Source: an uncultured Syntrophobacterales bacterium
Lineage (GTDB): Bacteria; Desulfobacterota; Binatia; UBA9968; JAJDTQ01
Length of the DNA stretch: 64,000 nucleotides
NCBI GenBank assembly: GCA_964519455.1
Contig: CAZFIU010000022.1
Span: 461 to 64,460 of the forward strand
Direction of reading: 5' to 3'
Part shown: positions 2,950-49,237 of the stretch, one piece after another
Layout: each line of letters starts with the position of its first letter
How positions within the stretch are numbered: the stretch's first letter is position 1
Program-made: the position numbers and the translations under genes
The notes under the pieces: generated by a model
Databases searched by the model: none
Seen by the model: the letters and a program-made list of their open reading frames with translations, nothing else
Told to the model about the DNA's origin: nothing

Positions 2950-3175
2950 TTCGTCAGGCTCCGAGGGTTGTCATCCCCGCGGATTCCCGCTTCCCAGACT
3001 GTGTCAAAACTCCGCTCGGAAAAGAAATGCTACCCATCCCCTGAACCGTCATTCCCGCGGAAGCGGGAATCCAGGGGTGGAGAGGGGCAAAACGGCGTAT
3101 TCCCCCCGCCTCACCCCGCCTGGATTCCCGCTTCCGCGGGAATGACGAATCGAGGGATCCGTGCCTCATGAGTCG
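2950..3175 (+). repeat. MITE/REP-like palindromic element, copy 1 (right end truncated)
   Basis: Contains cagactgtgtcaaaactccgctcgg, then hairpin gtcattcccgcggaagcgggaatccagg, a spacer, and the inverse hairpin cctggattcccgcttccgcgggaatgac. It matches nine other loci in the window. Confidence 0.85.
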
Positions 3176-3256
3176 TGATTCTTCGTTGCCTATTCCCCCT
3201 CCCGGCAGTATGCTGCAAGTGTGAGGTCAAGCGTGGTCTGGTGTTGCGTCCCTTTC

Positions 3257-8823: not shown

Positions 8824-9112
8824 TCCGTCATTCCCGGCTCCCTCCGTCATTCCCGCTTTCCAGGCTGTGTCAAAACCCCGCTCGGCTACGAAGTGGAAGT
8901 GGCACCGCCACCCCATATCGTCATTCCCGCGCAAGCTTGCCCTCGACTCCGATCGGGGGCGGGAATCCATGGGTGGGGGGTGTGGCGACCTCACTGCCCG
9001 GCCCCACCCCGCCTGGATTCCCGCTTCCGCGGGAATGACTCATTGGGATGTAGCGGGGTTCCGTAACTACCAGAAATCATTGAACAAGACTTTATTTTCA
9101 TATCAATGACCC
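8824..9112 (+). repeat. MITE/REP-like palindromic element, copy 3
   Basis: Same architecture as copy 2. Hairpin 1 carries an insertion (tcattcccgcgcaagcttgccctcgactccgatcgggggcgggaatcc), and the right inverted repeat is missing. Confidence 0.85.
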
Positions 9113-9137
9113 GGAGGCGGCCAGCACGCCTAATTTC

Positions 9138-9911
9138 ATGAGTGACGTGAACGAACAGGCGCGCCACGACAGCTTCTACTTCAAGCTCTTCGACCGGCTC
9201 GACAAGCCAGGCTGCCCCATCTGCGCCATCGTCATCGACGACAGCCGCGCCTACCTGGACAGCGTCCTCTACGAACGCGTCACCGACGTGCCCACCCGCG
9301 AGGGGCTGCGGGAGTCCTTCGGCCTCTGCAACCCGCACACGTGGCTGCTGCGCGACCTGCCGGCATCCAGCGCCCCGGACCTGGGCTTCGCCATCATCGC
9401 CAGGGACCTGCTGAGCCGTTTCCACGACAGGGCCAATGCACCACGTGTGGCTGGATGGGCCACGCTCAAAGGTTGGCTGACACGCACTCGTTCAGGCCTC
9501 CGCGCACGACTCAAAAAGACGCCCTGTCCCGCCTGCGTGGTTGCCGCCCGGTCGGAGGCCGTCCACCTCCAACAACTGCTGGACCTGCTCGGAGACGGGA
9601 CCTTCGCCGAGCAGTACCGCAACTCTTTCGGTATCTGCATCCCGCATTTCCTCGTGGCCGAAGAAACCCATGGCGGCCACCCGCACTTCGCCGAACTCCG
9701 GCAACTCCAGATCCGCGCCGCACAATCCTTGCACGACACCCTCGACCGGTTCACCGAAAAACAGGACCACCGCGCGCGGGAGGAGGTCACCCCGGCCGAG
9801 GCCAGGGCGTGGACCGACGCCATGGAGTTTCTGAGAGGGAAGCGGGGTGTGTTCGACGGCGAGATGCGCCGGCCAGCTTCGCCGATATTTCCCAGGCTCT
9901 ACAAGCCGTAG
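9138..9911 (+). CDS. Hypothetical protein with an internally duplicated CxxC...C-x-P-H module (putative metal-binding; function unknown)
   Basis: 257 aa. The two halves share CPICA...FGLCNPHTWLL and CPACV...FGICIPHFLV. I recognise no characterised family with confidence. Confidence 0.6.
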   Translation: MSDVNEQARHDSFYFKLFDRLDKPGCPICAIVIDDSRAYLDSVLYERVTDVPTREGLRESFGLCNPHTWLLRDLPASSAPDLGFAIIARDLLSRFHDRANAPRVAGWATLKGWLTRTRSGLRARLKKTPCPACVVAARSEAVHLQQLLDLLGDGTFAEQYRNSFGICIPHFLVAEETHGGHPHFAELRQLQIRAAQSLHDTLDRFTEKQDHRAREEVTPAEARAWTDAMEFLRGKRGVFDGEMRRPASPIFPRLYKP

Positions 9912-9948
9912 GACCTGTGCGCGGCCCGCTTTCTTATCGCGCCTCGCC

Positions 9949-11133
9949 TCATCCCTCCGGGGCCGGCATCACACGGCGCAGGTAGGCGTCGAACAGCGGG
10001 ACGGTGAAGGCGGTGTCGCCGTGGGCGGGGCTGTAGATCATGCCTTTGCCGATGAGCTTCGCCCGGGTCGGGGCCACGACGCGGACGGACTGGCCGAGGA
10101 CGTCGGCGATTTCGCCGGAGCGGTGCGGGCCGGTGCCGAGTTCGGCCATGGCGCGGAGGTAGCGCTTTTCGGATGGCGCCAAGCGGTCGAAACGGGCGCG
10201 AAAGAAGCTGGCGTCCAGTTCGGCGGTTGCCTGTCGGGTGGCGGACTCGACGTCTTCCGCCGTCACCGGTGACGACCTGGCGCAATCCCAGCAGTGCTTG
10301 CCCCACTCCTGGAGGAAATAAGGGTAGCACTGGGTATCTTGCAGCACCGCATCCAGGGCAGCCGGTTGAAAGACGACGTCAAGGCGCCTTGCCGGCGCTT
10401 CGATGGCAAGCCTTGCGGAAACGGGGTCCAGCGGACCAATCCCCGGAAAAGTGAAGAGACGCTCGGAATAGGTCTTGGCGGACGCGGTGCGGGCGACCAG
10501 TTGCGGCAGACCCGCCCCCACCATAGTGACCGGCAAGCGGCTCTGGGCCGCGCGGTGCAGGGCGGCGATCAACGCGGCCAGTTCGCGTTCCTGCACATAC
10601 TGCAACTCGTCGACGAACAGCGCCACCGCCGTGTCCTGATCGCGGGCGGCTTCGCCGACGGATTCCAGGAGCGCCGTCAGGTCGGCGTCCAGGTTGCCGC
10701 TGTCGGCGAGGCCGTGTTCCGGGGCGAGATCCAGGCTGATGTTGAGGTCGCCGGTGCCTACCTTGATGGCGCTGACGAACCCGGCAAGCGCTCTGAGTGC
10801 CCGGCGGGCGGCGGCGCTGGCGGCAGCGATGCGATTCATGCGCACCAGCGCGGCGTGTAGCGGTGGAACAAGCAGGACGGGAAGCGACCTGTCTTCCGGC
10901 GCCTCCAGGAGGAGCGTTGTAAAGCCGCGGCCTCGGGCGTCGTCGCAGATCCGGTTGAGAAGGACGGTCTTGCCTACCCCCCGGAGACCCACCATCAGCA
11001 TGCTCTTGGCCGCCAAGCCGTTACGAATGCGGTCCAGGGCGATGGCAGCCTGCTCGATCAGCGCGTCTCGCCCAGCCAATTCCGGCGGCGGCGTCCCGGC
11101 CCCTGGTGCATAGGGATTCAGTCGTGGGTCCAT
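9949..11133 (-). CDS. ATP-binding protein (Arch_ATPase / AAA_16-like P-loop NTPase)
   Basis: Walker A (MVGLRGVGKTVLL) and Walker B-like (ALFVDELQY) motifs, about 390 aa, typical of the orphan ATPase-domain family. Confidence 0.8.
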   Translation of the reverse strand: MDPRLNPYAPGAGTPPPELAGRDALIEQAAIALDRIRNGLAAKSMLMVGLRGVGKTVLLNRICDDARGRGFTTLLLEAPEDRSLPVLLVPPLHAALVRMNRIAAASAAARRALRALAGFVSAIKVGTGDLNISLDLAPEHGLADSGNLDADLTALLESVGEAARDQDTAVALFVDELQYVQERELAALIAALHRAAQSRLPVTMVGAGLPQLVARTASAKTYSERLFTFPGIGPLDPVSARLAIEAPARRLDVVFQPAALDAVLQDTQCYPYFLQEWGKHCWDCARSSPVTAEDVESATRQATAELDASFFRARFDRLAPSEKRYLRAMAELGTGPHRSGEIADVLGQSVRVVAPTRAKLIGKGMIYSPAHGDTAFTVPLFDAYLRRVMPAPEG

Positions 11134-11237: not shown

Positions 11238-12137
11238 TCAGTCCATGGTCCGCGGATCGAGGATGTCCCTCAGGCCGTCGCCGATCATGTTGAAGGCCAG
11301 GACCACGGCGAAGATGGCGGCGCCGGGGGCGATGGAGAGCCAGGGCTGGTTGAGGAGCTGGTTGACGCCGTCGCGGATCATGCCGCCCCAACTGGGGGTG
11401 GGGGGTTTCACGCCGAGGCCGATGAAGCTCAGGTTGGCTTCCTGGAGGATGGCGGTGGCGGTCCAGAGGCTTGCGACCACGAGCACCTCGTTCGAGATGT
11501 TGGGCAGGACGTGCTTGCAGATGATGCGCGCGTCGCTCATGCCGAGGGCGCGGGCGCCCTGGATGAAGTCCCGCTCCCGCAGCGAGATGGCGGAGCCGCG
11601 GGCGATGCGCGCGAAGCGCGGCGTGATGGCGATGGCGATGGCAATGGAGAGGTTCACCATGCCGGAACCCAGGACCGCCAGCACCATCAAGCCGAGGATC
11701 GTCGTGGGGAAGGTCATCAACAGGTCCGTCAGGCGGACCGTGACGGTATCGATGGCGCCGCCCTTGTAACCCGCGACGACCCCGAGGGTGCTGCCGAAGA
11801 TCAGCGCCATGCCCACCGCGGACAGGGCGATGCCCAGGGACACGCGTGCCCCCATGACGATGCGCGAGAGCACGTCCCTGCCGAAGCTGTCCGTGCCCAG
11901 AACGTGCTCCCCTCCGGGCGGCAAGTCTCCCTTGAGGAGGTTTTGCTGGACCGGATCGAAGGGGACCAGCCACGGGGCGAAAAGCGCCACCAGCAGGATC
12001 GCGGTGGTCAGGACAAGGCCTACCAACGTGGTCTTGTTGCGCTTCATGGCGCGCCAGACCCTGCTGCGGCGGCGGTGGCCGGACGAGACCGGGGCGCTCA
12101 CGGGTTCTTGTGTATCGGCGTTCATGGTTCGGTTCAC
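11238..12137 (-). CDS. ABC transporter permease (peptide/nickel type, DppC/OppC-like)
   Basis: Six TM segments and the EAA-like motif region (...ARALGMSDARIICKHVLPN...). Overlaps the upstream permease gene by 4 nt. Confidence 0.9.
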   Translation of the reverse strand: MNRTMNADTQEPVSAPVSSGHRRRSRVWRAMKRNKTTLVGLVLTTAILLVALFAPWLVPFDPVQQNLLKGDLPPGGEHVLGTDSFGRDVLSRIVMGARVSLGIALSAVGMALIFGSTLGVVAGYKGGAIDTVTVRLTDLLMTFPTTILGLMVLAVLGSGMVNLSIAIAIAITPRFARIARGSAISLRERDFIQGARALGMSDARIICKHVLPNISNEVLVVASLWTATAILQEANLSFIGLGVKPPTPSWGGMIRDGVNQLLNQPWLSIAPGAAIFAVVLAFNMIGDGLRDILDPRTMD

Positions 12138-13075
12138 TTGTACCGGATCCGCGGATCGATGAGGGCGTAAGTCAGGTCCGTCAACAGGTTCACCAGCACG
12201 ATGATTCCGGCGTAGAAGGTCATCACGGCCTGGAGCATCGCGTAGTCATGGGTGTTGATGCCGCCCACCATGAGCTTCCCCAGGCCCGGCCGGTTGAACA
12301 CGATGGTGACCAGGATGGAGCTGCCGATGAGGATGCCGGTGTAGATGCCGACCACGGAAACCACCGGCATCAGGGCGTTGCGGAGCGCATGCTTGTACAT
12401 CACCCAGCGCTCCTTGAGCCCCTTGGCCCGCGCCGTGCGCACGTACTCCATGTTGATGACCTCGAGGAGGGCGGACCGGGTGACCCGTGTGATGTAGGAC
12501 ATCATGGCCAACCCCACGCTCAGCGCCGGCAGCACCAGGTGGTGCAGACGGTCCCACGGGTCGTTCAGGTCGCCCGCGCCGATCACCGGGAAGAGGCGCA
12601 TCTGGTAGGCGAAGAAGAAGATCAGCAGAATGCCGAGGTAGAAGGACGGAGTGGAGATGCCCGCCAGCGAGAGCACCCTGGCGCAATAGTCCGTCATGGT
12701 GTTGCGCCGGCGCGCGGTGAGGATGCCCAGGGGAATGCCCAGCAGGAGACCCACCGCCAGTCCGGAGACGGCAAGGTCCAGCGTGTACGGAAGGGCGCGC
12801 CAGATCTGCGGCAGGATGGGCCTGCGGTTGGCCATGGAGATGCCGAGATCGCCCCGCAAGAGGCCCCAGACATAGTCCCGGAACTGGATCCACAGCGGCT
12901 CGTGGAGTCCCCAGCTCCGCCGGAACTGCTCCAGGGCTTCCGGCGGCGCCTCGTCGCCCAGGATGGCGTAGGCCGGATCGCCGGGCAGGATTCGCATCAC
13001 CACGAAAATGAAGACCATCACCCCCAGCATGGTGGGGATGGCCCACAGGGTCCTGCGAACGATGTATCCGCTCAT
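12134..13075 (-). CDS. ABC transporter permease (DppB/OppB-like)
   Basis: 313-aa BPD_transp_1-type permease (...YVRTARAKGLKERWVMYKHALRNAL...). Confidence 0.9.
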   Translation of the reverse strand: MSGYIVRRTLWAIPTMLGVMVFIFVVMRILPGDPAYAILGDEAPPEALEQFRRSWGLHEPLWIQFRDYVWGLLRGDLGISMANRRPILPQIWRALPYTLDLAVSGLAVGLLLGIPLGILTARRRNTMTDYCARVLSLAGISTPSFYLGILLIFFFAYQMRLFPVIGAGDLNDPWDRLHHLVLPALSVGLAMMSYITRVTRSALLEVINMEYVRTARAKGLKERWVMYKHALRNALMPVVSVVGIYTGILIGSSILVTIVFNRPGLGKLMVGGINTHDYAMLQAVMTFYAGIIVLVNLLTDLTYALIDPRIRYK

Positions 13076-13085: not shown

Positions 13086-14216
13086 TCAGTCGCTGATGTC
13101 CTGAAGGAACCAGCTCAGCGGCAACTCGTGGCCCAGGCCCCGGGCGCGGGCGCCCTCGTAGACCTTGCGGGCCGCTGCCGCGAACTGGATGGGTATGCCC
13201 TGGGTGACGAAGCAGGTGATTTCCCCGGAGGACGCCCTCCCGGGTTGGTTCCCGAGAACCACGTCGGAAAGGAACACCCGCTTCTCCCGGCCCATGGTCT
13301 GCTTCTCCCGGCGCAGCCACTCCGTGTCGATGGGCTCATAGCCCACGGCCGGGCGCCGTTCGGGGTCGGCGACGTGGTAGTCGGTTCTGGGCGTGCGGGA
13401 ATACACGTAGCGGTGGCACCGGCGGAACACGTCGTCGTCCATCTCGTTGGGCAACACGGCCAGGACGTGCATGCCGGGCTCCAGCCACTCTCCCTTGATC
13501 ACCGGCTCCAGCGAGTTGGTGCAGGCCGCGACGATGTCCGCCCCTTCCATCACGCGGCGCGGGTCGTCCACCGCCGCCACCGGGATTCCCAGGTTGGCGC
13601 CGGTGCGTTCGGCAAAGGCCGCCCGGTGCTCCGGGTTGGGGCTGTAGACGCGGACCTCGCGGATCGGCCGCACCTTGGCAATGGCCAGGGCGTGTGCCGT
13701 GGCCATGCCGGCTGTGCCGTAGAGACCCAGGACGGCGGCGTCCTCCCGGGCCATGTGCCTGACGCTGATGGCGCCCGCGGCCCCCACGCGCATGTGCTGG
13801 ACGTGGCCGTCGTTCATGATCGCCAGGGGCGCGCCGTCGTCGGTGCTGAAGAGCAGGATGAGGCCGCAGAACTTGCCCGGGGCGACGCAGTACTTCTTGA
13901 CCTGGGTGCCGGAGGCCGGAAGGATGTCCGACTTCATCCGGACGGCCAGCGCGTCCATCTTCGGGAGCGCCGAGGCCATGGGGTCCCAGGTGTACCAGCC
14001 GTCCCCGTCCGGCCGCGGCACCGAGTGCGTCGCCCGGGTGGCGGTGGCCCGCCCCAGACCCCACTCCCGGTAGGATTCCTCGACGGCGTCGATGGTGTCC
14101 TCCATGGTGAGGACCCGGGCCGCGGTCTCGTTGTCGATGAAGAGAACGCTCCGTTGCGCGATCTCCCGGTCGGCCTCGGTATTGCCGTGGTAGGTGACGT
14201 AGGCGTCGTTGTCCAT
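13086..14216 (-). CDS. Ornithine cyclodeaminase / mu-crystallin family protein
   Basis: Rossmann-fold segment LGLYGTAGMATAHALAIAKVRPIREVRVYSPN and overall length and family resemblance. Confidence 0.85.
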   Translation of the reverse strand: MDNDAYVTYHGNTEADREIAQRSVLFIDNETAARVLTMEDTIDAVEESYREWGLGRATATRATHSVPRPDGDGWYTWDPMASALPKMDALAVRMKSDILPASGTQVKKYCVAPGKFCGLILLFSTDDGAPLAIMNDGHVQHMRVGAAGAISVRHMAREDAAVLGLYGTAGMATAHALAIAKVRPIREVRVYSPNPEHRAAFAERTGANLGIPVAAVDDPRRVMEGADIVAACTNSLEPVIKGEWLEPGMHVLAVLPNEMDDDVFRRCHRYVYSRTPRTDYHVADPERRPAVGYEPIDTEWLRREKQTMGREKRVFLSDVVLGNQPGRASSGEITCFVTQGIPIQFAAAARKVYEGARARGLGHELPLSWFLQDISD

Positions 14217-14316: not shown

Positions 14317-15390
14317 CTAACCCATCTTGGCATCCCACTTGAGCGGCACGCAGATGCACAGGTCCGACTCCAGCTTGAAGCCGATGTCGACGCTGGACTT
14401 GCGCGCGTAGACGTTCTTGATCTCGTGGGTGGGGAGTGCCGCCAGGTCCTCCAGGATCTTGACCTGGGCGTCCTCCCACGCCGCGATCTGCCCCCGCGGG
14501 TCCATCTGGGCCTTGGCCTTCTGAATGGACGGGTCCGCGCCGTTGAAATGGGAGAAGTTCCGTTTCGCGCCCTTGGCGAAGAACTCTTCCAGGATGAAGT
14601 TCGCCGTAGGGAAGCGCGTCGCCGCCCGCAGCACCAGCGGGTTGCTGCCCTCGTCGTTCTTCTTGTGCCAGGCCGGATGGGCGATGACGTTGATGTTGAT
14701 GTCGATGCCCACCTGCTGCAACTGGTTCTGGAGCACCTCGATGGGGCGCCGGAACATGGGCTTTTCGCTGATGAAGACCGGATCGATCTTGAAGCCCTTG
14801 GGGAAGCCGGCGTCGGCCAGAAGCTGCTTCGCCTTTTCCGGGTTGTAGTCGTACCGGAGTTCCGCGGGCACGTCCTTGAGGGAACCCACGAACGTGGGCG
14901 GGATCACCGAGTGAAGGACCGACGCCACGTCGGGGCCGATGAAGCGGACGAGCGCCTCGCGGTTGATGGAGTGGGCGATGGCCTTGCGCACCCGGAGGTC
15001 GTCCAGCGGCTTGCGCGTCCGGTCCATGTGAAGCTTCACCACCGTGGAAGGACCGAAGGACTCGATGGCCACGCCCGGGCCCTTGACCTGGTTGATGGCG
15101 CGCTGCTCCCGGGCCAATTCGATGATGTGCAACTCCCCGGCCTTGAAGGCGAGGTTCCGGCTGCTGGCGTCCGGCAGGAAGCGGAAATTGATCTGCCTGA
15201 TGTTGGGCTTGCCCCGGTAGTAGCCGTCGTTCCGAACCAGCACCAGCCGCTCCTGCGGTATGTGCTCCTTGAACGCGAACGGGCCGGTGCCGATGGGATG
15301 GGTCCGCCGGTGCTCCAGTGCCAGGCGTTCCAGTGCCGAGGTTCGATGTGGCTTTACCCGGTGATTTTCGCTATAGGTACACCCCGTATG
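14317..15390 (-). pseudogene. 5'-truncated ABC transporter substrate-binding protein (family 5, DppA/OppA-like); the N-terminal roughly 200 aa and the signal peptide are missing
   Basis: The reading frame is open back to a stop at 15391-15393, but the conserved region begins mid-protein (...HPIGTGPFAFKEHIPQERLVLVRNDGYYRGKPN...). No ATG is present and only an internal GTG is available. Repeat copy 4 and a plus-strand gene occupy the space where the 5' end should be. Confidence 0.65.
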
Positions 15391-15527
15391 TCACGCTCTC
15401 GTGAAAACCCGCGCACGAGCGCGGTTGAGCAAGGCCATATCAAAGCCCCGAACGCGCTGTCAACGACGTTCTTCGGCCTGCACGCGTCCCGGAATGACCG
15501 GATCAGGCCAAGGCGGCGCCGTACCAA

Positions 15528-15865
15528 CTCGTCATTCCGCGGAAGAGGCTGTGTCAAAACGTTGGCCGGACAAGAGGTGGCACCCACACCCCAATGAGTC
15601 ATTCCCGCGGAAGCGGGAATCCAGGGGTGGGGGGTCTGGCGGCCTTATTGCCCGGCCCCACCCCGCCTGGATTCCCGCTTCCGCGGGAATGACTCATTGG
15701 GGTGTGGCAGGATTCCGTAACTACCAGAAATCATTGGACAAGTTCTTATTTTCATATCAATGACGGTTCGGGGTGGCCGTGCCATTCCGTGTTCGTTTGG
15801 AGTTTTGACACAGCCTGGAAAGCGGGAATCCAGGCGGGGCGAGGCGGGGCTTTGACACCGCTCGC
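15528..15865 (+). repeat. MITE/REP-like palindromic element, copy 4 (full length plus a partial extra hairpin)
   Basis: Left end ggctgtgtcaaaacg, both hairpins, tail, and right inverted repeat gagttttgacacagcc, followed by tggaaagcgggaatccaggcgggg. Confidence 0.85.
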
Positions 15866-15874
15866 GATGCGACA

Positions 15875-16135
15875 TTGGCCCGGAAGGGAGCAGGCGTGAT
15901 TCGAGTCGACCCCCACAAGTGCGACGGCTGCGGCATCTGCGTGTACGACTGCGGCGCCGACGTGTTCCGCTTCACCAACAAGAAGGACAAGGTCTTCCCC
16001 TTCGGCAACAAGTACTGCGTCAACTGCTTCCTGTGCGAGCTGGTCTGTCCCGAAGACGCCATCGAGGTAGTGTTGCGGCCCAAGAAGAAAAAGGCCGCGG
16101 CGGCCGCCGGAGCCACCGGCTCGGCAGACGCATGA
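15875..16135 (+). CDS. 2[4Fe-4S] dicluster ferredoxin
   Basis: Two CxxCxxC...CP motifs (CDGCGICVYDC and CVNCFLCELVCP). A likely alternative GTG start at about 15896 follows the RBS gaagggag. Confidence 0.75.
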   Translation: MARKGAGVIRVDPHKCDGCGICVYDCGADVFRFTNKKDKVFPFGNKYCVNCFLCELVCPEDAIEVVLRPKKKKAAAAAGATGSADA

Positions 16136-16197
16136 GAAAGTTCATCGGGCGACACCGGCAGATGGGCCGGCACGCATAAGCCGGCCTCGGGAGACCC

Positions 16198-17874
16198 ATG
16201 AGCGATTCCATCCCCACCACCGACTGCGACGTACTCATCATCGGCGGCGGGCTGGCCGCGTGCATGGCCGCGTTGGAGGCCTCCAAGCGCAACATGGACG
16301 TGGTGCTGGTGGACAAGGGCCGGCTCGGGCGCAGCGGCTCCAGCCCCACTTCCGGCGGCGTCCCCCAGGCGGCCTTCGCCCACGCCGACCCCCGCGACAG
16401 CAAGGACATGCACTTCCGCGACACCATCGTGGGCGGCGACTTCATCCCCAACCAGAAGATCGTGCGCGCCATCGTCGACGAGGTTACCGACCGGGTCATC
16501 GAGCTGGAGGAGATGGGCCTTCACTTCAAGAAGACCCCGGACGGCAAGCAGTTCTACCAGGAGAAGCGCCTGGGCAGTTCCTACGCGCGAAGCTGTCCGC
16601 CGGTGGGCGGCAGCGTGGGCATGCTGGGCTACCTCCGCAAGGAGGTCTTCAACCGGGAAGTCCAGGTTCGGCAGTGGACCATGGTGACGAAGCTGCTGCG
16701 CCGGAACGGCCGGGTCACCGGCGCCTTCGGCATCAACGTCCAGAAGGGCACCTACGAAGCCTTCCGAGCCCGCGCCGTCGTGCTGGCCGCGGGCAGCGCC
16801 ATCGCGATCCAGAAGTACACCAGCGCCAACTTCCTCACCACGGGCGACGCCTACGTCGCGGCCTTCGACATCGGCGCCCCCTTGGCCAACCTCGAATTCC
16901 TGGAGTTCACGCTGATCCCGGCCCCTGGCGGCGAGGCCATCTCCATGGCCGGCCTGTCGCCGTTCACCAGCAAGGGCGGCCGCTTCTTCAACTCCCTGAA
17001 CGAGCGCTTTCTGGAACGGTACGACCCGGAGCGGCTGGAAGGCACCACGCGTGCCATCCTGGTGGGCGCCACCTACAAGGAGATGCTCGAAGGCCGCGGC
17101 CCCGTCTGCCTGGACCCGTCCTACATCCCGGACGAAAAGTGGGACGACGAGATCCAGTTCGAGTACACCCCCAAGCTCGGCAAGGCCGGCGTCAACCCCC
17201 GCTCCGACCGCTTCGAGTGGGTGCCCGCGCTGCACACCTTCCTGGGCGGCCTCGACATCAACGAACGTTGCGAGGTGGCCGGAGTGGAGGGTTTGTACGC
17301 TTCGGGCGAGTCCGCCACCGGCACCCACGGCTCCAACCGGCTCAGCGGCAACGCCATCGCCAGCGCCTTCGCCCTGGGCGCGCGGTCGGGCAAGTACGCC
17401 GCCATCTACGGCGCGGACGAGGAGATGGGAGAAGTGGACCCCGACGAGACCGCTGCCGAGATCGCGAGGATCGAGTCCTTCAAGCGCGACGACGGACTGG
17501 ACCCCGCCGAGCTGCACGAAGAGATCAAGAACGTCGCCTGGGAGAGCACCGGAGTCGTGAGGAACGAGCGCGGCCTGACCGCCGGTCTGGAGCGCTTCCG
17601 GGAAATCCGCAACGAAAAGGTCCCCCGGCTCAAGGCCGACGACCTCCGCGGCCTCATCAAGTCCCTCGAATGCTCGAACCTCTCATGGGTAGGCGAGATG
17701 GTTGCCGCCTGCGCCCTGGAACGCAAGGAATCCCGCGGCCAGCACACCCGTGACGACTACCCCGAACGGGACGACAAGAACTGCCTCAACTGGATCTCGG
17801 TGGAGAAGGAAGGCGACCGGGTGAAGGCGGTGGTCAAGCCGATCCCTTTCGAGGAGGGGGATCTGAAGCCCTGA
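16198..17874 (+). CDS. FAD-binding oxidoreductase of the succinate dehydrogenase / fumarate reductase / AprA / NadB flavoprotein family
   Basis: N-terminal FAD fold DVLIIGGGLAACMAALEA. Also HFRDTIVGGDFIPNQ (like the SdhA H-x-x-D-T-x-x-GGD motif) and the C-terminal capping-domain motif ESRGQHTRDDYPERDD. Confidence 0.85.
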   Translation: MSDSIPTTDCDVLIIGGGLAACMAALEASKRNMDVVLVDKGRLGRSGSSPTSGGVPQAAFAHADPRDSKDMHFRDTIVGGDFIPNQKIVRAIVDEVTDRVIELEEMGLHFKKTPDGKQFYQEKRLGSSYARSCPPVGGSVGMLGYLRKEVFNREVQVRQWTMVTKLLRRNGRVTGAFGINVQKGTYEAFRARAVVLAAGSAIAIQKYTSANFLTTGDAYVAAFDIGAPLANLEFLEFTLIPAPGGEAISMAGLSPFTSKGGRFFNSLNERFLERYDPERLEGTTRAILVGATYKEMLEGRGPVCLDPSYIPDEKWDDEIQFEYTPKLGKAGVNPRSDRFEWVPALHTFLGGLDINERCEVAGVEGLYASGESATGTHGSNRLSGNAIASAFALGARSGKYAAIYGADEEMGEVDPDETAAEIARIESFKRDDGLDPAELHEEIKNVAWESTGVVRNERGLTAGLERFREIRNEKVPRLKADDLRGLIKSLECSNLSWVGEMVAACALERKESRGQHTRDDYPERDDKNCLNWISVEKEGDRVKAVVKPIPFEEGDLKP

Positions 17875-17911: not shown

Positions 17912-18937
17912 CTACGGTTCCTGTTCGCCCCTCGGCCCGCCGAAGGCCGACAAGTGCTCCTTGAGAGTGCGGAACCCGGCTTCGTTCAGCCCCGTCGCGG
18001 CCTCGATCACATCCCAGGTCACCCCGACCCTCAGAAAGCCCTCAACTACCTCCACCTTGCCGCGTTGTGCGCCTTCCGCCAGCCCTTGGCCACGGCCTTC
18101 CTCACGTCCTTGGCTCCGGCCTTCCTCACGGCCTTGGCTCCGGCCTTCCGCTCTACCCTCTTCCAGGAGTTGTTGAGCATATGACATGATCTCGCCTCCC
18201 TGCTCGCGGCCACGGCGCCGCAACGCTTCGTTGAAAGCCAGCGCTCCCGCTTCATCCTGTGTCGCCATCACGTACACCATGAATAGACGAATATAGTTCA
18301 CCCCGCCACCTGAAAACAACGTCGCCAGCAACCTCGCCGCGGCGTCCATCGCCAGACCCACGTTCCGTCCATAGGCCGCCATCATCAACAACTGCGCGAT
18401 GCGCCCCTTGACCCCTCCCTCCACGCCGTCCGGACCGAGACTCGTCTGGTCCACCAGCACGTGCTCGAACCGAGGCACCCACGGCCATCCCCGAACCGCC
18501 GCAGGAAACAGGTCCGCGAACTCCGTCGAGTGCCCCCATCCGCGGCCTCCCTGGTAGAACACCACCGGCACGATGGGATGCAACCCCGGCCGCCCCGCCT
18601 CGTCCCGCAGCCCCGCATCCCAGATCCGGCAGCAATACTTGAGCAACCGGAACCGCATCCATGCGTCCGACGTCGATTGATGCTCGAACAGCAGGTACAG
18701 CCATATCCGCTCTGTGTCCTCCCCATACACCGCCTCGTACAGCAGGTCCGACTCGCTCTCCCGCAGGGCGTCGTCCAGGAACGTTCCCTCCAGCAGGTTC
18801 AGCGTCTCCCAATCCACCCTGTCCCGGAATCCGGCGGGCAAAGCCGCCCGCAACAGGCCGGCGGCTTCCGCCGCATCCGAAAACACCGCGCGGAACAGCC
18901 GGTCGTGGGGATGCTCTACTTCGTGGGCCATGGACAC
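17912..18937 (-). CDS. Rpn-family recombination-promoting nuclease / putative transposase (YhgA-like, PD-(D/E)XK)
   Basis: N-terminus HDRLFRAVFSD...LLYEAVYGEDTERIWLYLLFEHQS is characteristic of Rpn/Transposase_31 proteins. The C-terminus carries imperfect tandem 8-aa repeats (GRAEGRSQGREEGRSQGREEGRGQG). Confidence 0.8.
   Translation of the reverse strand: MSMAHEVEHPHDRLFRAVFSDAAEAAGLLRAALPAGFRDRVDWETLNLLEGTFLDDALRESESDLLYEAVYGEDTERIWLYLLFEHQSTSDAWMRFRLLKYCCRIWDAGLRDEAGRPGLHPIVPVVFYQGGRGWGHSTEFADLFPAAVRGWPWVPRFEHVLVDQTSLGPDGVEGGVKGRIAQLLMMAAYGRNVGLAMDAAARLLATLFSGGGVNYIRLFMVYVMATQDEAGALAFNEALRRRGREQGGEIMSYAQQLLEEGRAEGRSQGREEGRSQGREEGRGQGLAEGAQRGKVEVVEGFLRVGVTWDVIEAATGLNEAGFRTLKEHLSAFGGPRGEQEP
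18084..18155. repeat. Three 24-bp tandem repeats inside the Rpn-family gene (ccttggc(c/t)(a/c)cggccttcctcacg(t/g))
   Basis: Direct repeats are visible in the sequence and encode the octapeptide repeats of the protein. Confidence 0.8.
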
Positions 18938-19405
18938 ACCTCCCGGGTCTGGACAAAGACGGCGAGGATTGTTCGCCGCCTGTCCTATGATATTCGGCCC
19001 TTTCCGGTGAGACTTTAGGCCCAGGCTGGATTGTCTTTCCCCTTATCGACCAGTGCGTTCGATCAGGGGTTCAATTCGGCGACGGGTCCGAGTTGAAATG
19101 TCAAAGGGCGGCCTTGAGGTGCGCTCGTCCGGGGCACGCATTCTCGACCACGTGTTTGAGGTCCGCGATTCGGCACGGAGAGACTGTGGCTCTGAGCCCC
19201 GTCAACCCGATGGACTTCCTGTTCCTCGGGAGATGCTGCTCCGCCACCGCGAAGAAAAGCCATTGGCGGGGACCGCTGTGATTGGCATACCTATCGCGCC
19301 TCTCGTCATGCCATGCAAAAACACAGATATCCGCTGGCCGTCCCGGAGAGTCCACCCATCGACTCCCGTCCCCTCAATCGGGTTTGGAGACAAGCTTTCG
19401 CAGGA

Positions 19406-20020
19406 TCACGGATAGGTGAACGTCGGAGGAAGTACGTTGCCAAGGAATGGCCGTCCGAAGTTGTTGCGGATTGTCAAGGCGGATGTCGGATCACGGCGAA
19501 AACGTGAATCGCCAATCTCCCCCTTCACCTTGATGCCGACGTGCTGCTTGAGCGCCTCCTGCACCACTACCTCCACGTCCTCGATCCGCTGCCCCGGATG
19601 ACAGGTCACTTCCGCCCAGCAGAACCAAGTGCGGTCAAGCATTGCCTTGACCGTTTCCCGACTTGTCTTGTCACCCCGACCCTTGACCATGTCGATCGCG
19701 CTTGAGTTTAAGACTCCTACCGGATCCGCTAGGAAATCAACTACGTTCCTCGGGATAGAGAAACACACAGGGTTCTTAAACCAGGAAATCCGTTGCCCGT
19801 CGCTGTCTCGTTTGCCGGCCCCGTGCACATGTTCGTACCAGCGCCTGCCGATGTCGTCTGACTTACCAACGTAATAGCCCGCGTAGGCGTCGCCGGTGGT
19901 TGCCATCACAAAAATGTAGACACCAGTGCCAAGGTAGGGGCAATACCAGTTCGAATAGGGCTCGGGCTCGATCGCTCCCATCGGGACCGATTTCCAATGT
20001 AGATCATAGGTGCCGGACAT
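19406..20020 (-). CDS. GIY-YIG nuclease family protein
   Basis: Motifs GVYIFVMATTGDAYAGYYVGKSDDIGRRWYEH (GIY ... YVG ... R ... E). The internal start MSGTYDL is chosen; the ORF-track N-terminal extension overlaps the upstream gene and is low complexity. Confidence 0.7.
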   Translation of the reverse strand: MSGTYDLHWKSVPMGAIEPEPYSNWYCPYLGTGVYIFVMATTGDAYAGYYVGKSDDIGRRWYEHVHGAGKRDSDGQRISWFKNPVCFSIPRNVVDFLADPVGVLNSSAIDMVKGRGDKTSRETVKAMLDRTWFCWAEVTCHPGQRIEDVEVVVQEALKQHVGIKVKGEIGDSRFRRDPTSALTIRNNFGRPFLGNVLPPTFTYP

Positions 20021-20097
20021 GTTTATGTTCTCCTGTGCCGCGATCCGTAGTTGGTGGGCTTTACCCGGTTCTGGACCGGACACCCGATCTGCTGTAC

Positions 20098-21096
20098 TCA
20101 CCTGTGAGACGAGTAACCGCGATGGTGTGCGGCGAGCGAAGCGCACATTGCCGCAAGCCGCTGGCGAAGGCTGGGCGGCTCCAGGATTGTCACGCTTTCT
20201 CCCCATGTCACGAGATGCCAACAAATTTCTTCGACGCCTCCCGCCCTGAAACGCACCGTCAGCGAGTCGTCGCTGTTCTCAGTGATGGTCTGGCTTGGAT
20301 GGAATTGAAACGCCTTGGCGTCCTGCGCGGCGTCGGCATCGAAGTGGAGCACCACGTCGAAGGGTTCCTCCTGGAAAGTGCCAAATGAACGCTCGGCGTA
20401 CCGCCTCAAATCGAAAGCCGGGTCGCCTTCGAATGGCTCATCGGTGATCTGCGCCTCGCTGATGTTTCCGAGTCTCCAGAGCCTCGGCTTGTTTCCCTGA
20501 TCGGTTCGTCCCACCAGGAAAGCACGGTTGCCGTAAAGAACCCCATAGGGGCAAACCCGCTGGCGGTCCCGCCGCCCCGTTCCTCGTGAAGAATATCTGA
20601 TATAGATCTTACGGTACGTCGTCACGGCCTCTCGCACGAGCGAAAGCAGGCCCTCTTCGAAGCTCTCCCTAGGGCCGGCCCGCATCGCGAGGCCTTCCGC
20701 CTCCATGAGAGCCTCAAGCGCAGCGTCGAACTCTTCGGAAGAGTGTTGGTGCGACGCAGCCCGCAGTTTGACCACAAGACCGCTCACGCGCTCTGCGAGG
20801 TCGGCACGACCTAGACTGCCAGCCACCGCTTCAAGGTCCGCAAGGTCCTCAGGTGTGATGGAGATAAACGGGTTCAGGGCGCGCGACCGAAGCCGCCAAT
20901 GAATCCGACGGTCGCCACTGTCCGTGTCCACAACCTCCAGCGGCCCAAATGCTGCCTCGACGGCATCACGCATTCGCTCCGCCGTACGTCGACTTACGGA
21001 GAACTCGCCCTGGATGTCGGCGATGGTTACGCCGCGGTGGCTTCCTTGGAGGTAGATGGCAAGGCAAACAAGCTCTACGAGGCGTTCGTGACGCAT
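20098..21096 (-). CDS. WYL-domain transcriptional regulator (HTH - WYL - WCX; YafY/BrxR/CapW-like)
   Basis: N-terminal HTH (LVELVCLAIYLQGSHRGVTIADIQGEFSVSRRTAERMRD), a central WYL-like segment (IYIRYSSRGTGRRDRQRVCPYGVLYGNRAFLVG) and a C-terminal extension. Confidence 0.85.
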   Translation of the reverse strand: MRHERLVELVCLAIYLQGSHRGVTIADIQGEFSVSRRTAERMRDAVEAAFGPLEVVDTDSGDRRIHWRLRSRALNPFISITPEDLADLEAVAGSLGRADLAERVSGLVVKLRAASHQHSSEEFDAALEALMEAEGLAMRAGPRESFEEGLLSLVREAVTTYRKIYIRYSSRGTGRRDRQRVCPYGVLYGNRAFLVGRTDQGNKPRLWRLGNISEAQITDEPFEGDPAFDLRRYAERSFGTFQEEPFDVVLHFDADAAQDAKAFQFHPSQTITENSDDSLTVRFRAGGVEEICWHLVTWGESVTILEPPSLRQRLAAMCASLAAHHRGYSSHR

Positions 21097-21122
21097 TCAT
21101 TCTCGGGGCGGAGGGGGGATTG

Positions 21123-21731
21123 TCACCAACGGTGGAGCCCGCCCCACCCGTGTTTATCAATCTTCCCGTAACGCCAAGCAGGAATACCTTTGGGGCCAGC
21201 GCTGCCGATCAGGAAGAGATACTCCGCATTGCTTGCTTCTCCGCATTGGTTGTTAACTGCAACGTGCATACGACATAGGATGTCGAGTTTCCGTTCGAGC
21301 CACATCCTCCTCGCTTCGATGTTCAACTGGTCTTCGGGGTAATCGTAAAAGACCAACACCTTCAAGGGAGAACGGAACATCAATAGCTTCCACATCTCCG
21401 TTTCCACATCTGCCCCATTCTCGTGCTCAACTAGTACGTGCATACCATCTGGATACACTCCTCCACCGCCAGGACGGAAAGTAGCCGTGTCTTCGTCATA
21501 GAAGACGGTATCCAGCGTGTACCATTCCCTCCCCATCGTCAGAGTTCGCCCGGCAACAGGAGGTAGCCTTACCGACAATCGTTCCAGGAAAGAACCGTTC
21601 CCTGCCAGCATGTATCGCGTCCATTCGCGGTCGGTCTGGTAAGCTTGTCGAATGTCGTCTTCCCGCTGCAAAACGTCGTCTTCCCACTGTTGGCAAAATG
21701 CAATGCAGAACTCTTCGGCAGTAGGCATCAA
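21123..21731 (-). CDS. Hypothetical protein (no confident family; possible nuclease-like core VLVEHEN...E.EMWK)
   Basis: 202-aa ORF tightly packed between the AAA gene and the WYL gene, with no recognisable domain. Confidence 0.55.
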   Translation of the reverse strand: MMPTAEEFCIAFCQQWEDDVLQREDDIRQAYQTDREWTRYMLAGNGSFLERLSVRLPPVAGRTLTMGREWYTLDTVFYDEDTATFRPGGGGVYPDGMHVLVEHENGADVETEMWKLLMFRSPLKVLVFYDYPEDQLNIEARRMWLERKLDILCRMHVAVNNQCGEASNAEYLFLIGSAGPKGIPAWRYGKIDKHGWGGLHRW

Positions 21732-21780
21732 CTAAGTCCTCCGTCGTCAATCCGTGAAGATGAAACAGTTGGTAGCACAT

Positions 21781-23868: not shown

Positions 23869-23984
23869 GACAACCCCCCATTTGTGACGTCCATGGGGGA
23901 CCGTAGCGTGAATGTGCGTCAGTTTCGGACGTACCCGGCTGTCCTCGACGCAGATTTTTCTGGAAGTGGCGAGAGGCGCGGTCC

Positions 23985-24992
23985 TTACACCCGCGGCAGC
24001 ACCGCCGAACCGAACAGTTCCATCGCTGCGAGGATGTCCTTCTGCTCCAGCCCCGGCGTCCAGTCGAAGCGCAGCAGCAGCAAATCCGGCTTGAGCGACT
24101 CCTCGTAGGAGCGGATCTCTTCGATGCAGTCCTCGGGGGAGCCGAGGATGAAGCGGTGGCGGGCGAGGCGGTCGAAGTCCCAGGTTAGCTCGTCGGGGTT
24201 GGTCATGGCCTCGTCCTGGCCCCACTTGACGTAGACGTCGCGGTAGAGCTTGTCGAGGCAGGGGCGGGCCTTGGCCACGGCCTCGTCGCGGGTGGGGGCG
24301 ACGAAGCATTCCCGGACCATGACCAGGGCGCCGGCGCCTGGCTTGCCGGTGTCGGCCCATGCTTGGCGGAAAAGCGTAGTCTGTTCCTTCAACTCCTCGA
24401 TGGCTGAATGGGGTCCCACGAGCCAGCCGTCGCCGATGCGGGCGGCGCGCTTGACGCCCGTGTCGCCGTTGGCGGCGATCCAGACGGGCGGGCGCGGCTT
24501 CTGCAGCGGGCGCGGGGCGATGGTGACGTCCTTCAGTTCGAAGGCGTTGCCTGAGAACGAGACGTGTTCCTCGGTCCAGAGACGCTGGACGATTTCGACA
24601 CCTTCCACGAAACGGTCGAAGCGTTGCTTCTTTGTGAGGTTGAACGCGTCCAACTCCTGCTGCCGGTAACCCAGGCCGAAGGAAAAGACGGCGCGGCCCT
24701 CGTTCATGACGTCGATGGTGGCCAGCTCCTTGGCGATGACCACGGGGTCGTGGAGGCCGAGGAGCGTGGCGGCGGTGCCGACGCTGGCCCGCTTGGCCTC
24801 GGCGCAGAGCCGGCCCAGGAGCGGCACTTGGTGCAGCCGCTGAAAGCCGGGGATGTTGTAATGCTGGCCCATGGTGATGGCCTCGAACCCGGCTTCGTCG
24901 GCCACCCGGGTCTGTTCCGCCAGCGTGGGCAGGAGGGTCTCGGGGGGCTTCTCGATGGAAACCTGGGGATTGAGTTGGATACCGAATCTCAT
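23985..24992 (-). CDS. LLM-class (luciferase-like) flavin-dependent oxidoreductase
   Basis: 335 aa of TIM-barrel LLM family (MRFGIQLNPQ..., ...FSFGLGYRQQELDAFNL...). Confidence 0.9.
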   Translation of the reverse strand: MRFGIQLNPQVSIEKPPETLLPTLAEQTRVADEAGFEAITMGQHYNIPGFQRLHQVPLLGRLCAEAKRASVGTAATLLGLHDPVVIAKELATIDVMNEGRAVFSFGLGYRQQELDAFNLTKKQRFDRFVEGVEIVQRLWTEEHVSFSGNAFELKDVTIAPRPLQKPRPPVWIAANGDTGVKRAARIGDGWLVGPHSAIEELKEQTTLFRQAWADTGKPGAGALVMVRECFVAPTRDEAVAKARPCLDKLYRDVYVKWGQDEAMTNPDELTWDFDRLARHRFILGSPEDCIEEIRSYEESLKPDLLLLRFDWTPGLEQKDILAAMELFGSAVLPRV

Positions 24993-49232: not shown

Positions 49233-49237
49233 GGCGG

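What the first reader, a model, noticed from the sequence alone, without database searches (positions are those of the whole stretch)
14317..15865. The peptide-type ABC transporter cassette is decaying: the substrate-binding gene is 5'-truncated at a repeat copy and no ATPase genes are present
The DppA/OppA-like frame is open back to 15391 but lacks the first roughly 200 residues, the signal peptide and any ATG. Repeat copy 4 and the ferredoxin gene occupy the space where the 5' end should be. The permease genes (12134..13075, 11238..12137) are intact, but no DppD/F-type ATPase genes follow them. An ornithine cyclodeaminase gene is embedded in the operon. Together with the alpha/beta-hydrolase remnant at 56080 this points to ongoing gene loss, possibly linked to the repeat expansion.
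Basis: partly seen in the sequence, partly recalled or inferred. Interest (0 to 1): 0.55.

Follow-up and report, generated by a model that had tools for sequence, protein, structure and literature searches.

The report
Strain-specific deletion in transporter binding-protein gene
In this sponge-associated Binatia bacterium, a clean 603-base deletion has knocked out the binding-protein gene of an uptake operon; the deletion does not touch the nearby repeat, and the "missing" ATPase genes are absent from every relative too, so this is one ordinary recent gene loss, not a decaying cassette.

Summary

**The truncation.** The family-5 solute-binding-protein (SBP) gene on the minus strand is truncated. 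Its homology to intact genes runs only from 15303 down to 14317. Close relatives carry an intact 523-aa gene (L008, 96.5% nt identity; also L004 and L009). Aligned against them, the window has an exact 603-bp deletion. It removes the Shine-Dalgarno sequence, the ATG, a twin-arginine signal peptide and codons 1-195.

**The repeat is not involved.**
- The junction (15304/15305) lies in unique sequence, about 180 nt from the repeat.
- About 190 nt of conserved leader is retained.
- L008 has the same repeat in the same place with an intact SBP gene.
- The ferredoxin gene is the ancestral divergent neighbour.

**The deletion is real.** Independent assemblies from other sequencing runs span the junction (L001, L003; L002 at 98.8%).

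**The missing ATPases are not decay.** No Binatia locus examined has DppD/F genes within ±10 kb. Neither do three further relatives down to 56% permease identity. All four operon genes are under strong purifying selection (dN/dS 0.04-0.28). The ATPases are therefore presumably supplied in trans, which I infer but did not show.

The repeat core matches the published NTS/SRM hairpin repeats.

Interest is low.

The parts
14317..15303 (-). Remnant of the family-5 (DppA/OppA/opine-type) substrate-binding-protein gene: codons 196-523 plus the stop codon. No RBS, native start or signal peptide.
   Evidence: Pfam SBP_bac_5 from profile position 109 of 368. Aligns to residues 196-523 of the intact 523-aa orthologues in L004, L008 and L009. 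No internal stops. pN/pS against L008 is 0.08, so there is no further decay.
15304..15305 (-). Deletion junction. 603 bp present in L004, L008 and L009 are absent here: 18 nt of 5' UTR including GGAAAGGAG, the ATG, the Tat signal MREIDRRTFLKG... and codons 1-195.
   Evidence: blastn and MAFFT alignments. The junction bases GG are ambiguous, with at most 1-2 nt of microhomology. The same junction occurs in L001, L002 and L003.
15306..15485 (-). Retained ancestral upstream region of the operon. It carries a conserved TTGACA-N17-ATATGG promoter-like block and a conserved leader block (CTACCTATAGCGRAAATCACCGGGTAAAGCCA).
   Evidence: Conserved across 8 Binatia genomes, with or without the repeat. 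No Rfam family. No convincing conserved RNA structure. The strict sigma-70 scan found nothing.
15486..15869 (.). Mosaic repeat insert ('repeat copy 4') in the divergent ferredoxin-SBP intergenic region. It holds two inverted copies of the 28-nt core GTCATTCCCGCGGAAGCGGGAATCCAGG at 15598-15625 (+) and 15666-15693 (-). Boundaries are approximate.
   Evidence: the repeat finder and core search. Present identically in L008, which has an intact SBP gene. Absent from L006, L010 and L012-L014, whose intergenic region is about 205-225 bp. The core equals the NTS/SRM motif of PMC11893778 with one mismatch.
13086..14216 (-). Ornithine cyclodeaminase/mu-crystallin family gene, intact; second gene of the operon.
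   Evidence: PF02423, E = 3e-46. All NCBIfam equivalogs are below their cut-offs. Best solved relative is a delta1-pyrroline-2-carboxylate reductase, 6t3e. Same position in L008-L014. Absent from the 64-66% clade L007, L015 and L017.
12134..13075 (-). DppB/OppB-type permease gene, intact.
   Evidence: BPD_transp_1_N plus BPD_transp_1. 93-99% identical full-length orthologues. dN/dS 0.06-0.08. The EAA coupling motif [28 protein letters not shown] can be read in the translation.
11238..12137 (-). DppC/OppC-type permease gene, intact; last gene of the operon.
   Evidence: OppC_N plus BPD_transp_1. Orthologues in L008-L014. dN/dS 0.04-0.13. Followed by an AAA_16 STAND-like gene at 9949-11133, not by ABC ATPases.
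15875..17874 (+). Divergently transcribed 2x[4Fe-4S] ferredoxin gene (15875/15896-16135) and 558-aa FAD flavoprotein gene of the succinate dehydrogenase/fumarate reductase type (16198-17874). These are conserved neighbours of the operon.
   Evidence: Pfam Fer4 families, and FAD_binding_2 plus Succ_DH_flav_C. Same divergent arrangement in L006, L008, L010 and L012-L014. Relatives align to the ferredoxin from residue 8, so GTG at 15896 is the likelier start.

Best explanation
**Organism and locus (shown).** The window comes from a sponge-associated Candidatus Binatia bacterium. It carries a conserved locus with two divergent halves:
- a ferredoxin gene and an FAD flavoprotein gene on one side;
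- a four-gene operon on the other: a Tat-exported family-5 SBP, an OCD/mu-crystallin-family enzyme, a DppB-like permease and a DppC-like permease.

**The lesion (shown).** In this strain lineage, a single 603-bp deletion with no meaningful end homology removed the ribosome-binding site, the start codon, the Tat signal peptide and the first 195 codons of the SBP gene.

**Consequence (inferred).** The remaining 328 codons cannot yield an exported, ligand-binding SBP. High-affinity uptake through this module is therefore disabled, unless another SBP docks on the permeases. The promoter/leader and the three downstream genes are untouched and may still be transcribed.

**What is unrelated to the deletion (shown).** The neighbouring hairpin repeat is an older insertion into the divergent intergenic region. 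The ferredoxin gene is the ancestral neighbour.

**The missing ATPases.** The lack of DppD/F genes is the ancestral architecture of this transporter clade (shown). The nucleotide-binding subunits must then be encoded elsewhere and shared, as with the MsmX/MsiK-type 'multitask' ATPases of sugar importers (inferred, not shown).
For: **Deletion**
- L004 positions 1-34 match window 15337-15304, and L004 from 638 onward matches 15303 downward.
- A four-way alignment with L008 and L009 shows a 603-nt gap and otherwise collinear sequence, including the repeat in L008.
- tblastn finds no trace of the N-terminal 200 residues elsewhere in the window.

**Real, not an artefact**
- L001 (a contig seen in 7 samples) and L003 (a different run) are 100% identical across the junction. 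L002 is 98.8% identical and has the same junction.
- These short-read contigs break inside the repeat at 15613, not at the junction.

**Intact in relatives**
- A 523-aa SBP is present in L004, L006, L008, L009, L010, L012, L013 and L014.

**ATPase absence is ancestral**
- No Walker-A plus LSGGQ open reading frame occurs within ±10 kb in L006-L017. Most more distant homologues (L019-L033) have DppD and DppF directly after the second permease.
- Three more relatives at 80%, 72% and 56% permease identity also lack them.

**The ATPase-less clusters are functional**
- dN/dS is 0.04-0.28 for all four genes at dS of about 0.06-0.6. It is still 0.10-0.16 against L007.
- EAA coupling motifs are intact.

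**Precedent for shared ATPases**
- PMC7658222.
Against: - No DppD/F-type ATPase of a Binatia genome was actually found. A homology search seeded with the nearest cis-encoded DppD returned no recognisable Binatia hit among its 120 listed hits. Energisation in trans therefore remains an inference.
- Expression of the remnant and of the downstream genes is untested.
- The intact alleles come from other strains (at most 96.5% nt identity). Polarity rests on the parsimony argument that a full-length, conserved SBP is ancestral.
- L002 is a metagenome contig and could be a strain chimera.
Confidence: 0.88

Rival explanations
1. Repeat-mediated truncation: insertion or recombination of the dispersed repeat removed the 5' end of the SBP gene, and the repeat and ferredoxin gene now sit where it used to be.
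For: A repeat copy lies upstream of the remnant at about 15486-15869. The repeat family has about 8 loci in the 64 kb.
Against: - L008 has the same repeat at the same site and an intact SBP gene.
- About 180 nt of ancestral, cross-genome-conserved leader separate the repeat from the junction.
- The sequences at the two deletion ends are unrelated to the repeat and share at most 1-2 nt.
- The ferredoxin gene is the divergent neighbour in all relatives.
Confidence: 0.03
2. Assembly or sequencing artefact: the 5' part exists in the organism but was lost through a collapse or mis-join, or it is present in another frame.
For: Repeats nearby are known to break short-read assemblies. L001-L003 all end at 15613, inside the repeat hairpin.
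Against: - The junction is in unique sequence.
- Three other assemblies from at least two further sequencing runs, one of them a diverged strain, reproduce it exactly.
- No N-terminal SBP coding sequence occurs in any frame of the window.
- 603 bp are missing outright, so this is not a frameshift.
Confidence: 0.03
3. The whole cassette is decaying: the ATPase genes were lost first, the SBP gene is now truncated, and the OCD and permease genes will follow.
For: No DppD/F genes are present. The SBP gene is truncated. There is one other gene fragment in the window, at 56083-56418.
Against: - The ATPase-less layout is shared by all Binatia relatives and by a wide clade down to 56% permease identity.
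- Purifying selection acts on all genes in those clusters.
- In the window, the OCD and permease genes are full length. pN/pS is about 0-0.13 between the two deletion alleles.
Confidence: 0.05
4. The SBP-null allele is not neutral decay. It is favoured and is spreading between strain backgrounds by homologous recombination, and the permeases keep working with another, orphan SBP.
For: Between the window and L002, divergence is:
- 0.1% in the SBP remnant;
- 3 differences in the 1313 nt around the deletion;
- 0.6% in the OCD gene, 1.4% in permB and 1.9% in permC;
- 91 differences in the next 4290 nt (Fisher p = 9e-8).
Downstream genes stay intact.
Against: - L002 is a metagenome contig and may be a consensus or chimera of co-occurring strains.
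- The gradient could equally come from recombination that imported the permease end.
- No orphan SBP was identified.
- There are only two backgrounds.
Confidence: 0.12

Closest known systems
Dpp/Opp/Nik 'PepT' family ABC importers (TC 3.A.1.5), e.g. E. coli DppABCDF
   Same: A family-5 SBP, a DppB-like permease and a DppC-like permease with the N-terminal extensions BPD_transp_1_N and OppC_N, and EAA coupling loops.
   Different: - No DppD/DppF genes in the operon or within ±10 kb in any Binatia relative.
- An OCD-family enzyme gene sits between the SBP and permease genes.
- All NCBIfam equivalogs score far below their cut-offs, so the substrate is unknown.
- In this strain the SBP gene is deleted at its 5' end.
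Incomplete ABC importers energised by a shared 'multitask' ATPase (B. subtilis MsmX, S. pneumoniae MsmK, Streptomyces MsiK)
   Same: Operons that encode an SBP and two permeases but no nucleotide-binding subunit, yet are maintained and functional (PMC7658222). Here this is supported by conservation and dN/dS.
   Different: - The known cases are carbohydrate (CUT1) importers with a single homodimeric ATPase. This is a PepT-family module that normally needs a DppD/DppF pair.
- The shared ATPase was not identified here.
Opine-type family-5 SBPs and their catabolic loci on Agrobacterium/Rhizobium plasmids
   Same: - The best plasmid matches to the intact SBP are mostly Agrobacterium (88 of 149 records, 37-39% identity).
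- In pTi Kin003 the homologue sits beside FAD and 2Fe-2S oxidoreductase genes and PepT permease genes. So transport genes are interleaved with redox and catabolic genes, as here.
- The closest solved structure is 6tfq, an 'ABC transporter substrate-binding protein', E = 2e-98.
   Different: - Identity is only about 37-39%.
- The Ti-plasmid locus has its own fused ATPase gene.
- The catabolic partners differ: here an OCD-family enzyme plus a ferredoxin and an SdhA-like flavoprotein.
- No substrate can be assigned.
NTS / Ssn-related motif (SRM) hairpin repeats; Neisseria dRS3/NTS, targets of the GIY-YIG ssDNA nuclease SsnA (PMC11893778)
   Same: - The 28-nt core of the window's repeat, GTCATTCCCGCGGAAGCGGGAATCCAGG, equals the published NTS CGTCATTCCCGCGMAVGCGGGAATCYRG except for one loop base.
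- It is intergenic, oriented and hairpin-forming, and occurs in many unrelated genomes.
   Different: - Here the core is embedded in longer lineage-specific mosaic units, usually as an inverted pair.
- No GIY-YIG gene was seen in the window.
- It plays no detectable part in the SBP deletion.

Membership tests
PepT (Dpp/Opp/Nik) ABC importer | Periplasmic family-5 solute-binding protein | tested here: met
   PF00496, E = 6e-51, on the remnant. The intact 523-aa orthologue matches the NikA, GsiB and DppA models below their cut-offs. In the window itself only residues 196-523 are encoded.
PepT (Dpp/Opp/Nik) ABC importer | Two BPD_transp_1 permeases of DppB and DppC type with EAA coupling loops | tested here: met
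   PF19300 plus PF00528, and PF12911 plus PF00528. EAA motifs can be read in the translations.
PepT (Dpp/Opp/Nik) ABC importer | Two cognate ATPases (ABC_tran plus the oligo_HPY C-terminal domain) encoded with the permeases | tested here: not met
   None in the window. None within ±10 kb in L006-L017 or L192-L194. They are present in the more distant L019-L033.
Pseudogene created by deletion | Collinear intact orthologue in close relatives, with a defined missing segment that includes translation signals | tested here: met
   A 603-bp gap relative to L004, L008 and L009. The RBS, ATG, Tat signal and codons 1-195 are lost.
Pseudogene created by deletion | The lesion is real in the population, not an assembly error | tested here: met
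   The same junction occurs in L001 (7 samples), L002 and L003. Direct read mapping is not possible with these tools.
Multitask-ATPase-dependent incomplete ABC importer | Operon lacks an NBD gene but is evolutionarily maintained | tested here: met
   Conserved ATPase-less synteny. dN/dS 0.04-0.28.
Multitask-ATPase-dependent incomplete ABC importer | An orphan or shared NBD encoded elsewhere that energises the module | not testable with these tools
   Whole Binatia chromosomes could not be scanned. A homologue search with the L019 DppD gave no recognisable Binatia hit among the 120 listed.
Ornithine cyclodeaminase / mu-crystallin family | PF02423 domain over the full length | tested here: met
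   E = 3e-46, residues 36-358.
Ornithine cyclodeaminase / mu-crystallin family | Assignment to a specific activity (ornithine cyclodeaminase proper, alanine dehydrogenase, Pyr2C/Pip2C reductase, etc.) | tested here: not met
   Every NCBIfam equivalog scores far below its cut-off; the best is 139 bits against a cut-off of 409. The best solved-structure match is a Pyr2C reductase, E = 1e-32.
NTS / SRM (Ssn-related) hairpin repeat | Oriented core motif CGTCATTCCCGCGMAVGCGGGAATCYRG, or the degenerate SRM pattern | tested here: met
   14 core copies with at most 3 mismatches in the window, against 0 expected. One loop-base difference from the published consensus.
NTS / SRM (Ssn-related) hairpin repeat | Associated ssnA (single-domain GIY-YIG nuclease) gene in the genome | tested here: inconclusive
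   No GIY-YIG hit among the window's main open reading frames. The rest of the genome is not available.

The most novel reading that the evidence does not exclude
A broad clade of PepT-family importers runs without dedicated ATPase genes, on a shared DppD/F-like pair. The clade covers Binatia and relatives down to about 56% permease identity. This would be the peptide/opine-family counterpart of the MsmX/MsiK 'multitask ATPase' systems. Within it, the SBP-null allele seen here is being passed between strain backgrounds by homologous recombination and retained. That would make it an adaptive or host-specific loss of one uptake specificity in a sponge symbiont, while the permease and OCD genes stay in use.
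Probability: 0.12. Interest if true: 0.45.

Novelty: new member of a known kind. Interest (0 to 1): 0.2.

Why it matters
Mostly it matters as a correction. The locus is not evidence for repeat-driven genome erosion or for a decaying transporter. It is a single recent 603-bp deletion in one strain lineage of a sponge-associated Binatia species.

Two by-products have modest value.
- A large, conserved clade of peptide/opine-type ABC modules lacks its own ATPase genes. This bears on how 'incomplete' transporters in MAGs should be scored in metabolic reconstructions.
- The deletion allele is a convenient natural marker for strain-level variation and recombination in these uncultured symbionts.

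The identification of the window's dispersed repeat with the published NTS/SRM (Ssn-target) hairpin family is relevant to whatever separate finding concerns the repeat.

Tried and rejected
1. **Missing 5' part elsewhere in the window.** blastn with word size 7 and tblastn with the N-terminal 200 residues found nothing.
2. **Trans-acting DppD/F in Binatia.** I searched with the closest cis-encoded DppD (from L019). None of the 120 listed hits lay on a known Binatia chromosome or carried a Binatia name. A permease-B search then found only more ATPase-less modules.
3. **Riboswitch or RNA element in the conserved leader.** There was no Rfam hit apart from miRNA-like noise on the repeat hairpin. 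RNAalifold gave a weak structure with an unfavourable covariation term. Rejected as an RNA-structure candidate; a promoter/operator is more likely.
4. **Strict sigma-70 promoter scan.** Nothing found.
5. **Substrate assignment.** No equivalog passed its cut-off in NCBIfam. A literature search for PDB codes 6TFQ/6TFS/6TFX returned only unrelated 'six transcription factors' papers.
6. **Relaxed selection on downstream genes since the deletion.** Too few substitutions to test. The values seen are low.
7. **Literature search for the peptide strings encoded by the repeat.** No hits. A DNA-string search did succeed.
Full report
**What is in the sequence**

On the minus strand, the frame that ends with a stop at 14317-14319 is open back to 15391 and has no in-frame ATG. 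The first ATG/GTG/TTG codon is GTG at 15243. Pfam places the translated frame in SBP_bac_5 (E = 6e-51), but the match begins only at profile position 109 of 368.

Downstream on the same strand lie three intact genes:
- an OCD/mu-crystallin gene (13086-14216);
- a DppB-type permease gene (12134-13075);
- a DppC-type permease gene (11238-12137).

The next gene (9949-11133) is an AAA_16/STAND-like NTPase, not an ABC ATPase. A six-frame motif scan found Walker-A plus LSGGQ only at about 47.8-49.2 kb. Pfam shows that this pair belongs to a complete Liv-type branched-chain amino-acid transporter operon.

**Where the window comes from and what the intact locus looks like**

Exact-protein look-up of the permease returned contigs from other assemblies. 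A scan of species-representative genomes returned Candidatus Binatia MAGs and complete chromosomes. The closest is JAJEAI010000201.1 (isolate jk18x7bins.45). The 'jk18x7bins' prefix is used for MAGs from the Caribbean sponge Ircinia cf. reteplana in PMC9531527, which reports 14 Binatia MAGs from Caribbean Ircinia.

The arrangement is the same in L008 (96.5% nt identity over the operon), L009, L010, L012, L013, L014 and the two ends of OY282432.1 (L006/L011):
- FAD flavoprotein and ferredoxin genes, transcribed divergently from the operon;
- then SBP (523 aa), OCD, permease B and permease C.

The intact SBP starts MREIDRRTFLKG..., a twin-arginine (Tat) signal by the S/T-R-R-x-F-L-K consensus (sequence; the motif is established knowledge).

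**The lesion**

L004 positions 1-34 align to window 15337-15304, and L004 from 638 onward aligns to 15303 downward. A four-way alignment with L008 and L009 shows an exact 603-nt gap in the window. The gap begins 18 nt upstream of the ATG, so the GGAAAGGAG Shine-Dalgarno sequence is lost. It ends after codon 195.

The flanks at the two ends share at most 1-2 nt (AG/G). This is an end-joining or slippage-type deletion without meaningful homology. The remaining 328 codons have no further stops or frameshifts, and pN/pS against L008 is 0.08, so the deletion is the only lesion. tblastn with the missing 200 residues finds nothing elsewhere in the 64 kb.

**The repeat and the ferredoxin gene are bystanders**

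L008 has the same 588-bp ferredoxin-SBP intergenic region, with the same repeat insert, together with an intact SBP gene. More distant genomes (L006, L010, L012-L014) lack the insert and have a 205-225-bp intergenic region.

The SBP-proximal part of that region, about 180 nt, is conserved in all eight genomes. It carries TTGACA-N17-ATATGG and the block CTACCTATAGCGRAAATCACCGGGTAAAGCCA. It is fully retained in the window at 15306-15485.

The order on the minus strand is therefore: ferredoxin start, repeat insert (about 15869-15486), conserved promoter/leader (15485-15306), deletion junction (15305/15304), SBP codon 196 onward. The repeat predates the deletion and is separated from it by ancestral sequence.

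**Not an artefact**

L001 is a Logan contig recorded in 7 samples, and L003 comes from a different run. Both are 100% identical to the window from 15613 across the junction. L002 comes from a third run, is 98.8% identical, and carries the same junction. All three contigs end inside the repeat hairpin at 15613, which is where short-read assemblies would be expected to break. None breaks at the junction.

The 308-aa ORF called from the remnant is recorded on 4 contigs, the longest 65,292 bp.

**The missing ATPases**

None of the Binatia-type loci L006-L017 (permease C at least 71% identical) has an ORF with DppD/F-type Walker-A and signature motifs within ±10 kb. Most more distant homologues (L019-L033) have DppD and DppF directly after permease C.

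Three more relatives, chosen from a permease-B search at 80%, 72% and 56% identity, again end the module at permease C.

In the ATPase-less clusters all genes are under purifying selection. dN/dS is 0.17-0.28 for the SBP gene, 0.08-0.18 for OCD and 0.04-0.13 for the permeases, at dS of about 0.06-0.6. It is still 0.10-0.16 against the 65%-identical L007. The permease EAA coupling loops are intact.

The simplest reading is that the nucleotide-binding subunits are encoded elsewhere and shared. This is established for carbohydrate importers (MsmX, MsmK, MsiK; PMC7658222). I could not show it here.

**What the module probably does**

All NCBIfam equivalogs for the SBP, the OCD-family protein and the permeases score far below their cut-offs. 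The nearest solved SBP is 6tfq (E = 2e-98, named only 'ABC transporter substrate-binding protein').

tblastn against plasmids gives mostly Agrobacterium and Rhizobium records at 37-39% identity. In pTi Kin003 the homologue sits among FAD and 2Fe-2S oxidoreductase genes and PepT permease genes. The OCD-family protein is closest to a delta1-pyrroline-2-carboxylate reductase structure.

I infer an uptake-plus-catabolism module for an opine-like, imino-acid or amino-acid-derived compound rather than for ordinary peptides. The substrate is unknown.

**Population detail**

The deletion-bearing sequences cluster together (window = L001 = L003; L002 at 98.8%). Intact alleles are at most 96.5% identical to the window.

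Between the window and L002 there are 3 differences in the 1313 nt from 15613 to 14300. There are 91 in the next 4290 nt (Fisher p = 9e-8). Divergence rises with distance from the deletion:

| Segment | Divergence, window vs L002 |
|---|---|
| SBP remnant | 0.1% |
| OCD | 0.6% |
| permB | 1.4% |
| permC | 1.9% |

This fits transfer of the deletion-bearing segment between backgrounds by recombination. It could also be a chimeric metagenome contig. I treat it as a lead only.

**The repeat itself (side issue)**

The 28-nt core GTCATTCCCGCGGAAGCGGGAATCCAGG occurs 14 times in the window with at most 3 mismatches, against 0 expected. The copies are usually inverted pairs. Among the loci fetched before the metagenome scan (L001-L071), only L008 carries the exact core.

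Their flanks range from 30 to 70% GC and show no conservation. Partner hairpins often carry compensatory stem changes.

The core equals, with one loop-base difference, the published Neisseria Transformation Sequence / Ssn-related motif. That motif is the ssDNA target of the GIY-YIG nuclease SsnA (PMC11893778). No GIY-YIG gene was seen in the window.

**Verdict**

This is a real, recent, strain-specific 603-bp deletion that inactivates the SBP gene of an otherwise intact and conserved operon. It is unconnected to the repeat. The absence of ATPase genes is ancestral. This is an ordinary event in an uncharacterised but not unusual kind of locus.

Noticed in passing
window ~2980-3180, 5620-5980, 8840-9120, 15486-15869, 30270-30470, 34190-34540, 58030-58730, 61310-61500, 62860-63120; loci L072-L191: The dispersed repeat has a 28-nt core, GTCATTCCCGCGGAAGCGGGAATCCAGG. 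This equals the published NTS / Ssn-related motif (PMC11893778) with one loop-base difference. Partner hairpins often carry compensatory stem changes. No GIY-YIG (ssnA-like) gene was seen in the window.
   Followed up: partly
window 58112-58486 (-), flanked by repeat units at 58036-58095 and 58542-58700: A UPF0102/YraN-like (PD-(D/E)xK, NERD/Mrr_cat-like) small nuclease gene is bracketed on both sides by repeat units. This resembles the NTS-gene-NTS arrangement described for ssnA, but the nuclease fold is different. It sits next to an RNase HII gene, so this may be coincidence.
   Followed up: no
window 15306-15485 (-); L006, L008-L010, L012-L014 upstream of the SBP gene: About 180 nt upstream of the SBP start is conserved across 8 Binatia genomes. 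It contains TTGACA-N17-ATATGG and the block CTACCTATAGCGRAAATCACCGGGTAAAGCCA, with a TACC...GGTA inverted repeat. There is no Rfam hit and no convincing covarying structure. It is probably a promoter plus operator, and it is retained in the deletion strain.
   Followed up: partly
window 9922-11133; L008 12192-18357: The region just downstream of permease C is a variable hotspot with defence-like genes. The window has an AAA_16/STAND-like gene. L008 has an extra 6.2 kb between that gene and the DUF6062 gene, encoding a 1225-aa SIR2_2 protein and a DUF4276 plus AAA_21 pair. L010, L012 and L014 have other inserts, and L011 has none.
   Followed up: partly
window 17912-23985: Between the flavoprotein gene and the luciferase-like monooxygenase gene lies a YhgA-like Transposase_31 gene (17912-18937). 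Next to it is a low-GC (55-61%) island with a WYL/WCX regulator gene (20098-21096), a 734-aa double AAA+ ATPase frame (21784-23985) and unannotated ORFs. L006 has different genes (Mrr_cat and others) at this position.
   Followed up: no
window 56083-56418 (-): A 112-codon open frame matches only the C-terminal end of alpha/beta-hydrolase models (Abhydrolase_1 positions 194-240 of 245; Abhydrolase_4 32-95 of 103). The space upstream is occupied by the seryl-tRNA synthetase gene. It is not adjacent to a repeat copy.
   Followed up: partly
window 15613-10012 vs L002: Divergence between the two deletion-bearing alleles rises with distance from the deletion: SBP remnant 0.1%, OCD 0.6%, permB 1.4%, permC 1.9%, with 10 differences clustered in the 100-nt SBP-OCD spacer. 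This suggests a recombination tract or a sweep around the deletion, or a chimeric contig.
   Followed up: partly
window 15875-16135 (+): Relatives align to the ferredoxin only from residue 8, and an RBS-like GGGAGCAGGC precedes GTG at 15896. The true start is probably 15896 rather than the TTG at 15875.
   Followed up: no
L013 ~8401-8403; L015 ~9908-9939: There are apparent single-base frameshifts in the OCD gene of L013 and the permease B gene of L015, both in MAG assemblies. They could be assembly or sequencing errors rather than real pseudogenes; this was not checked.
   Followed up: no
window 47778-53191 (-): A complete Liv-type ABC importer operon (Peripla_BP_6, two BPD_transp_2 permeases, two ABC_tran ATPases) with its own ATPase genes. 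This contrasts with the ATPase-less PepT module in the same window.
   Followed up: no
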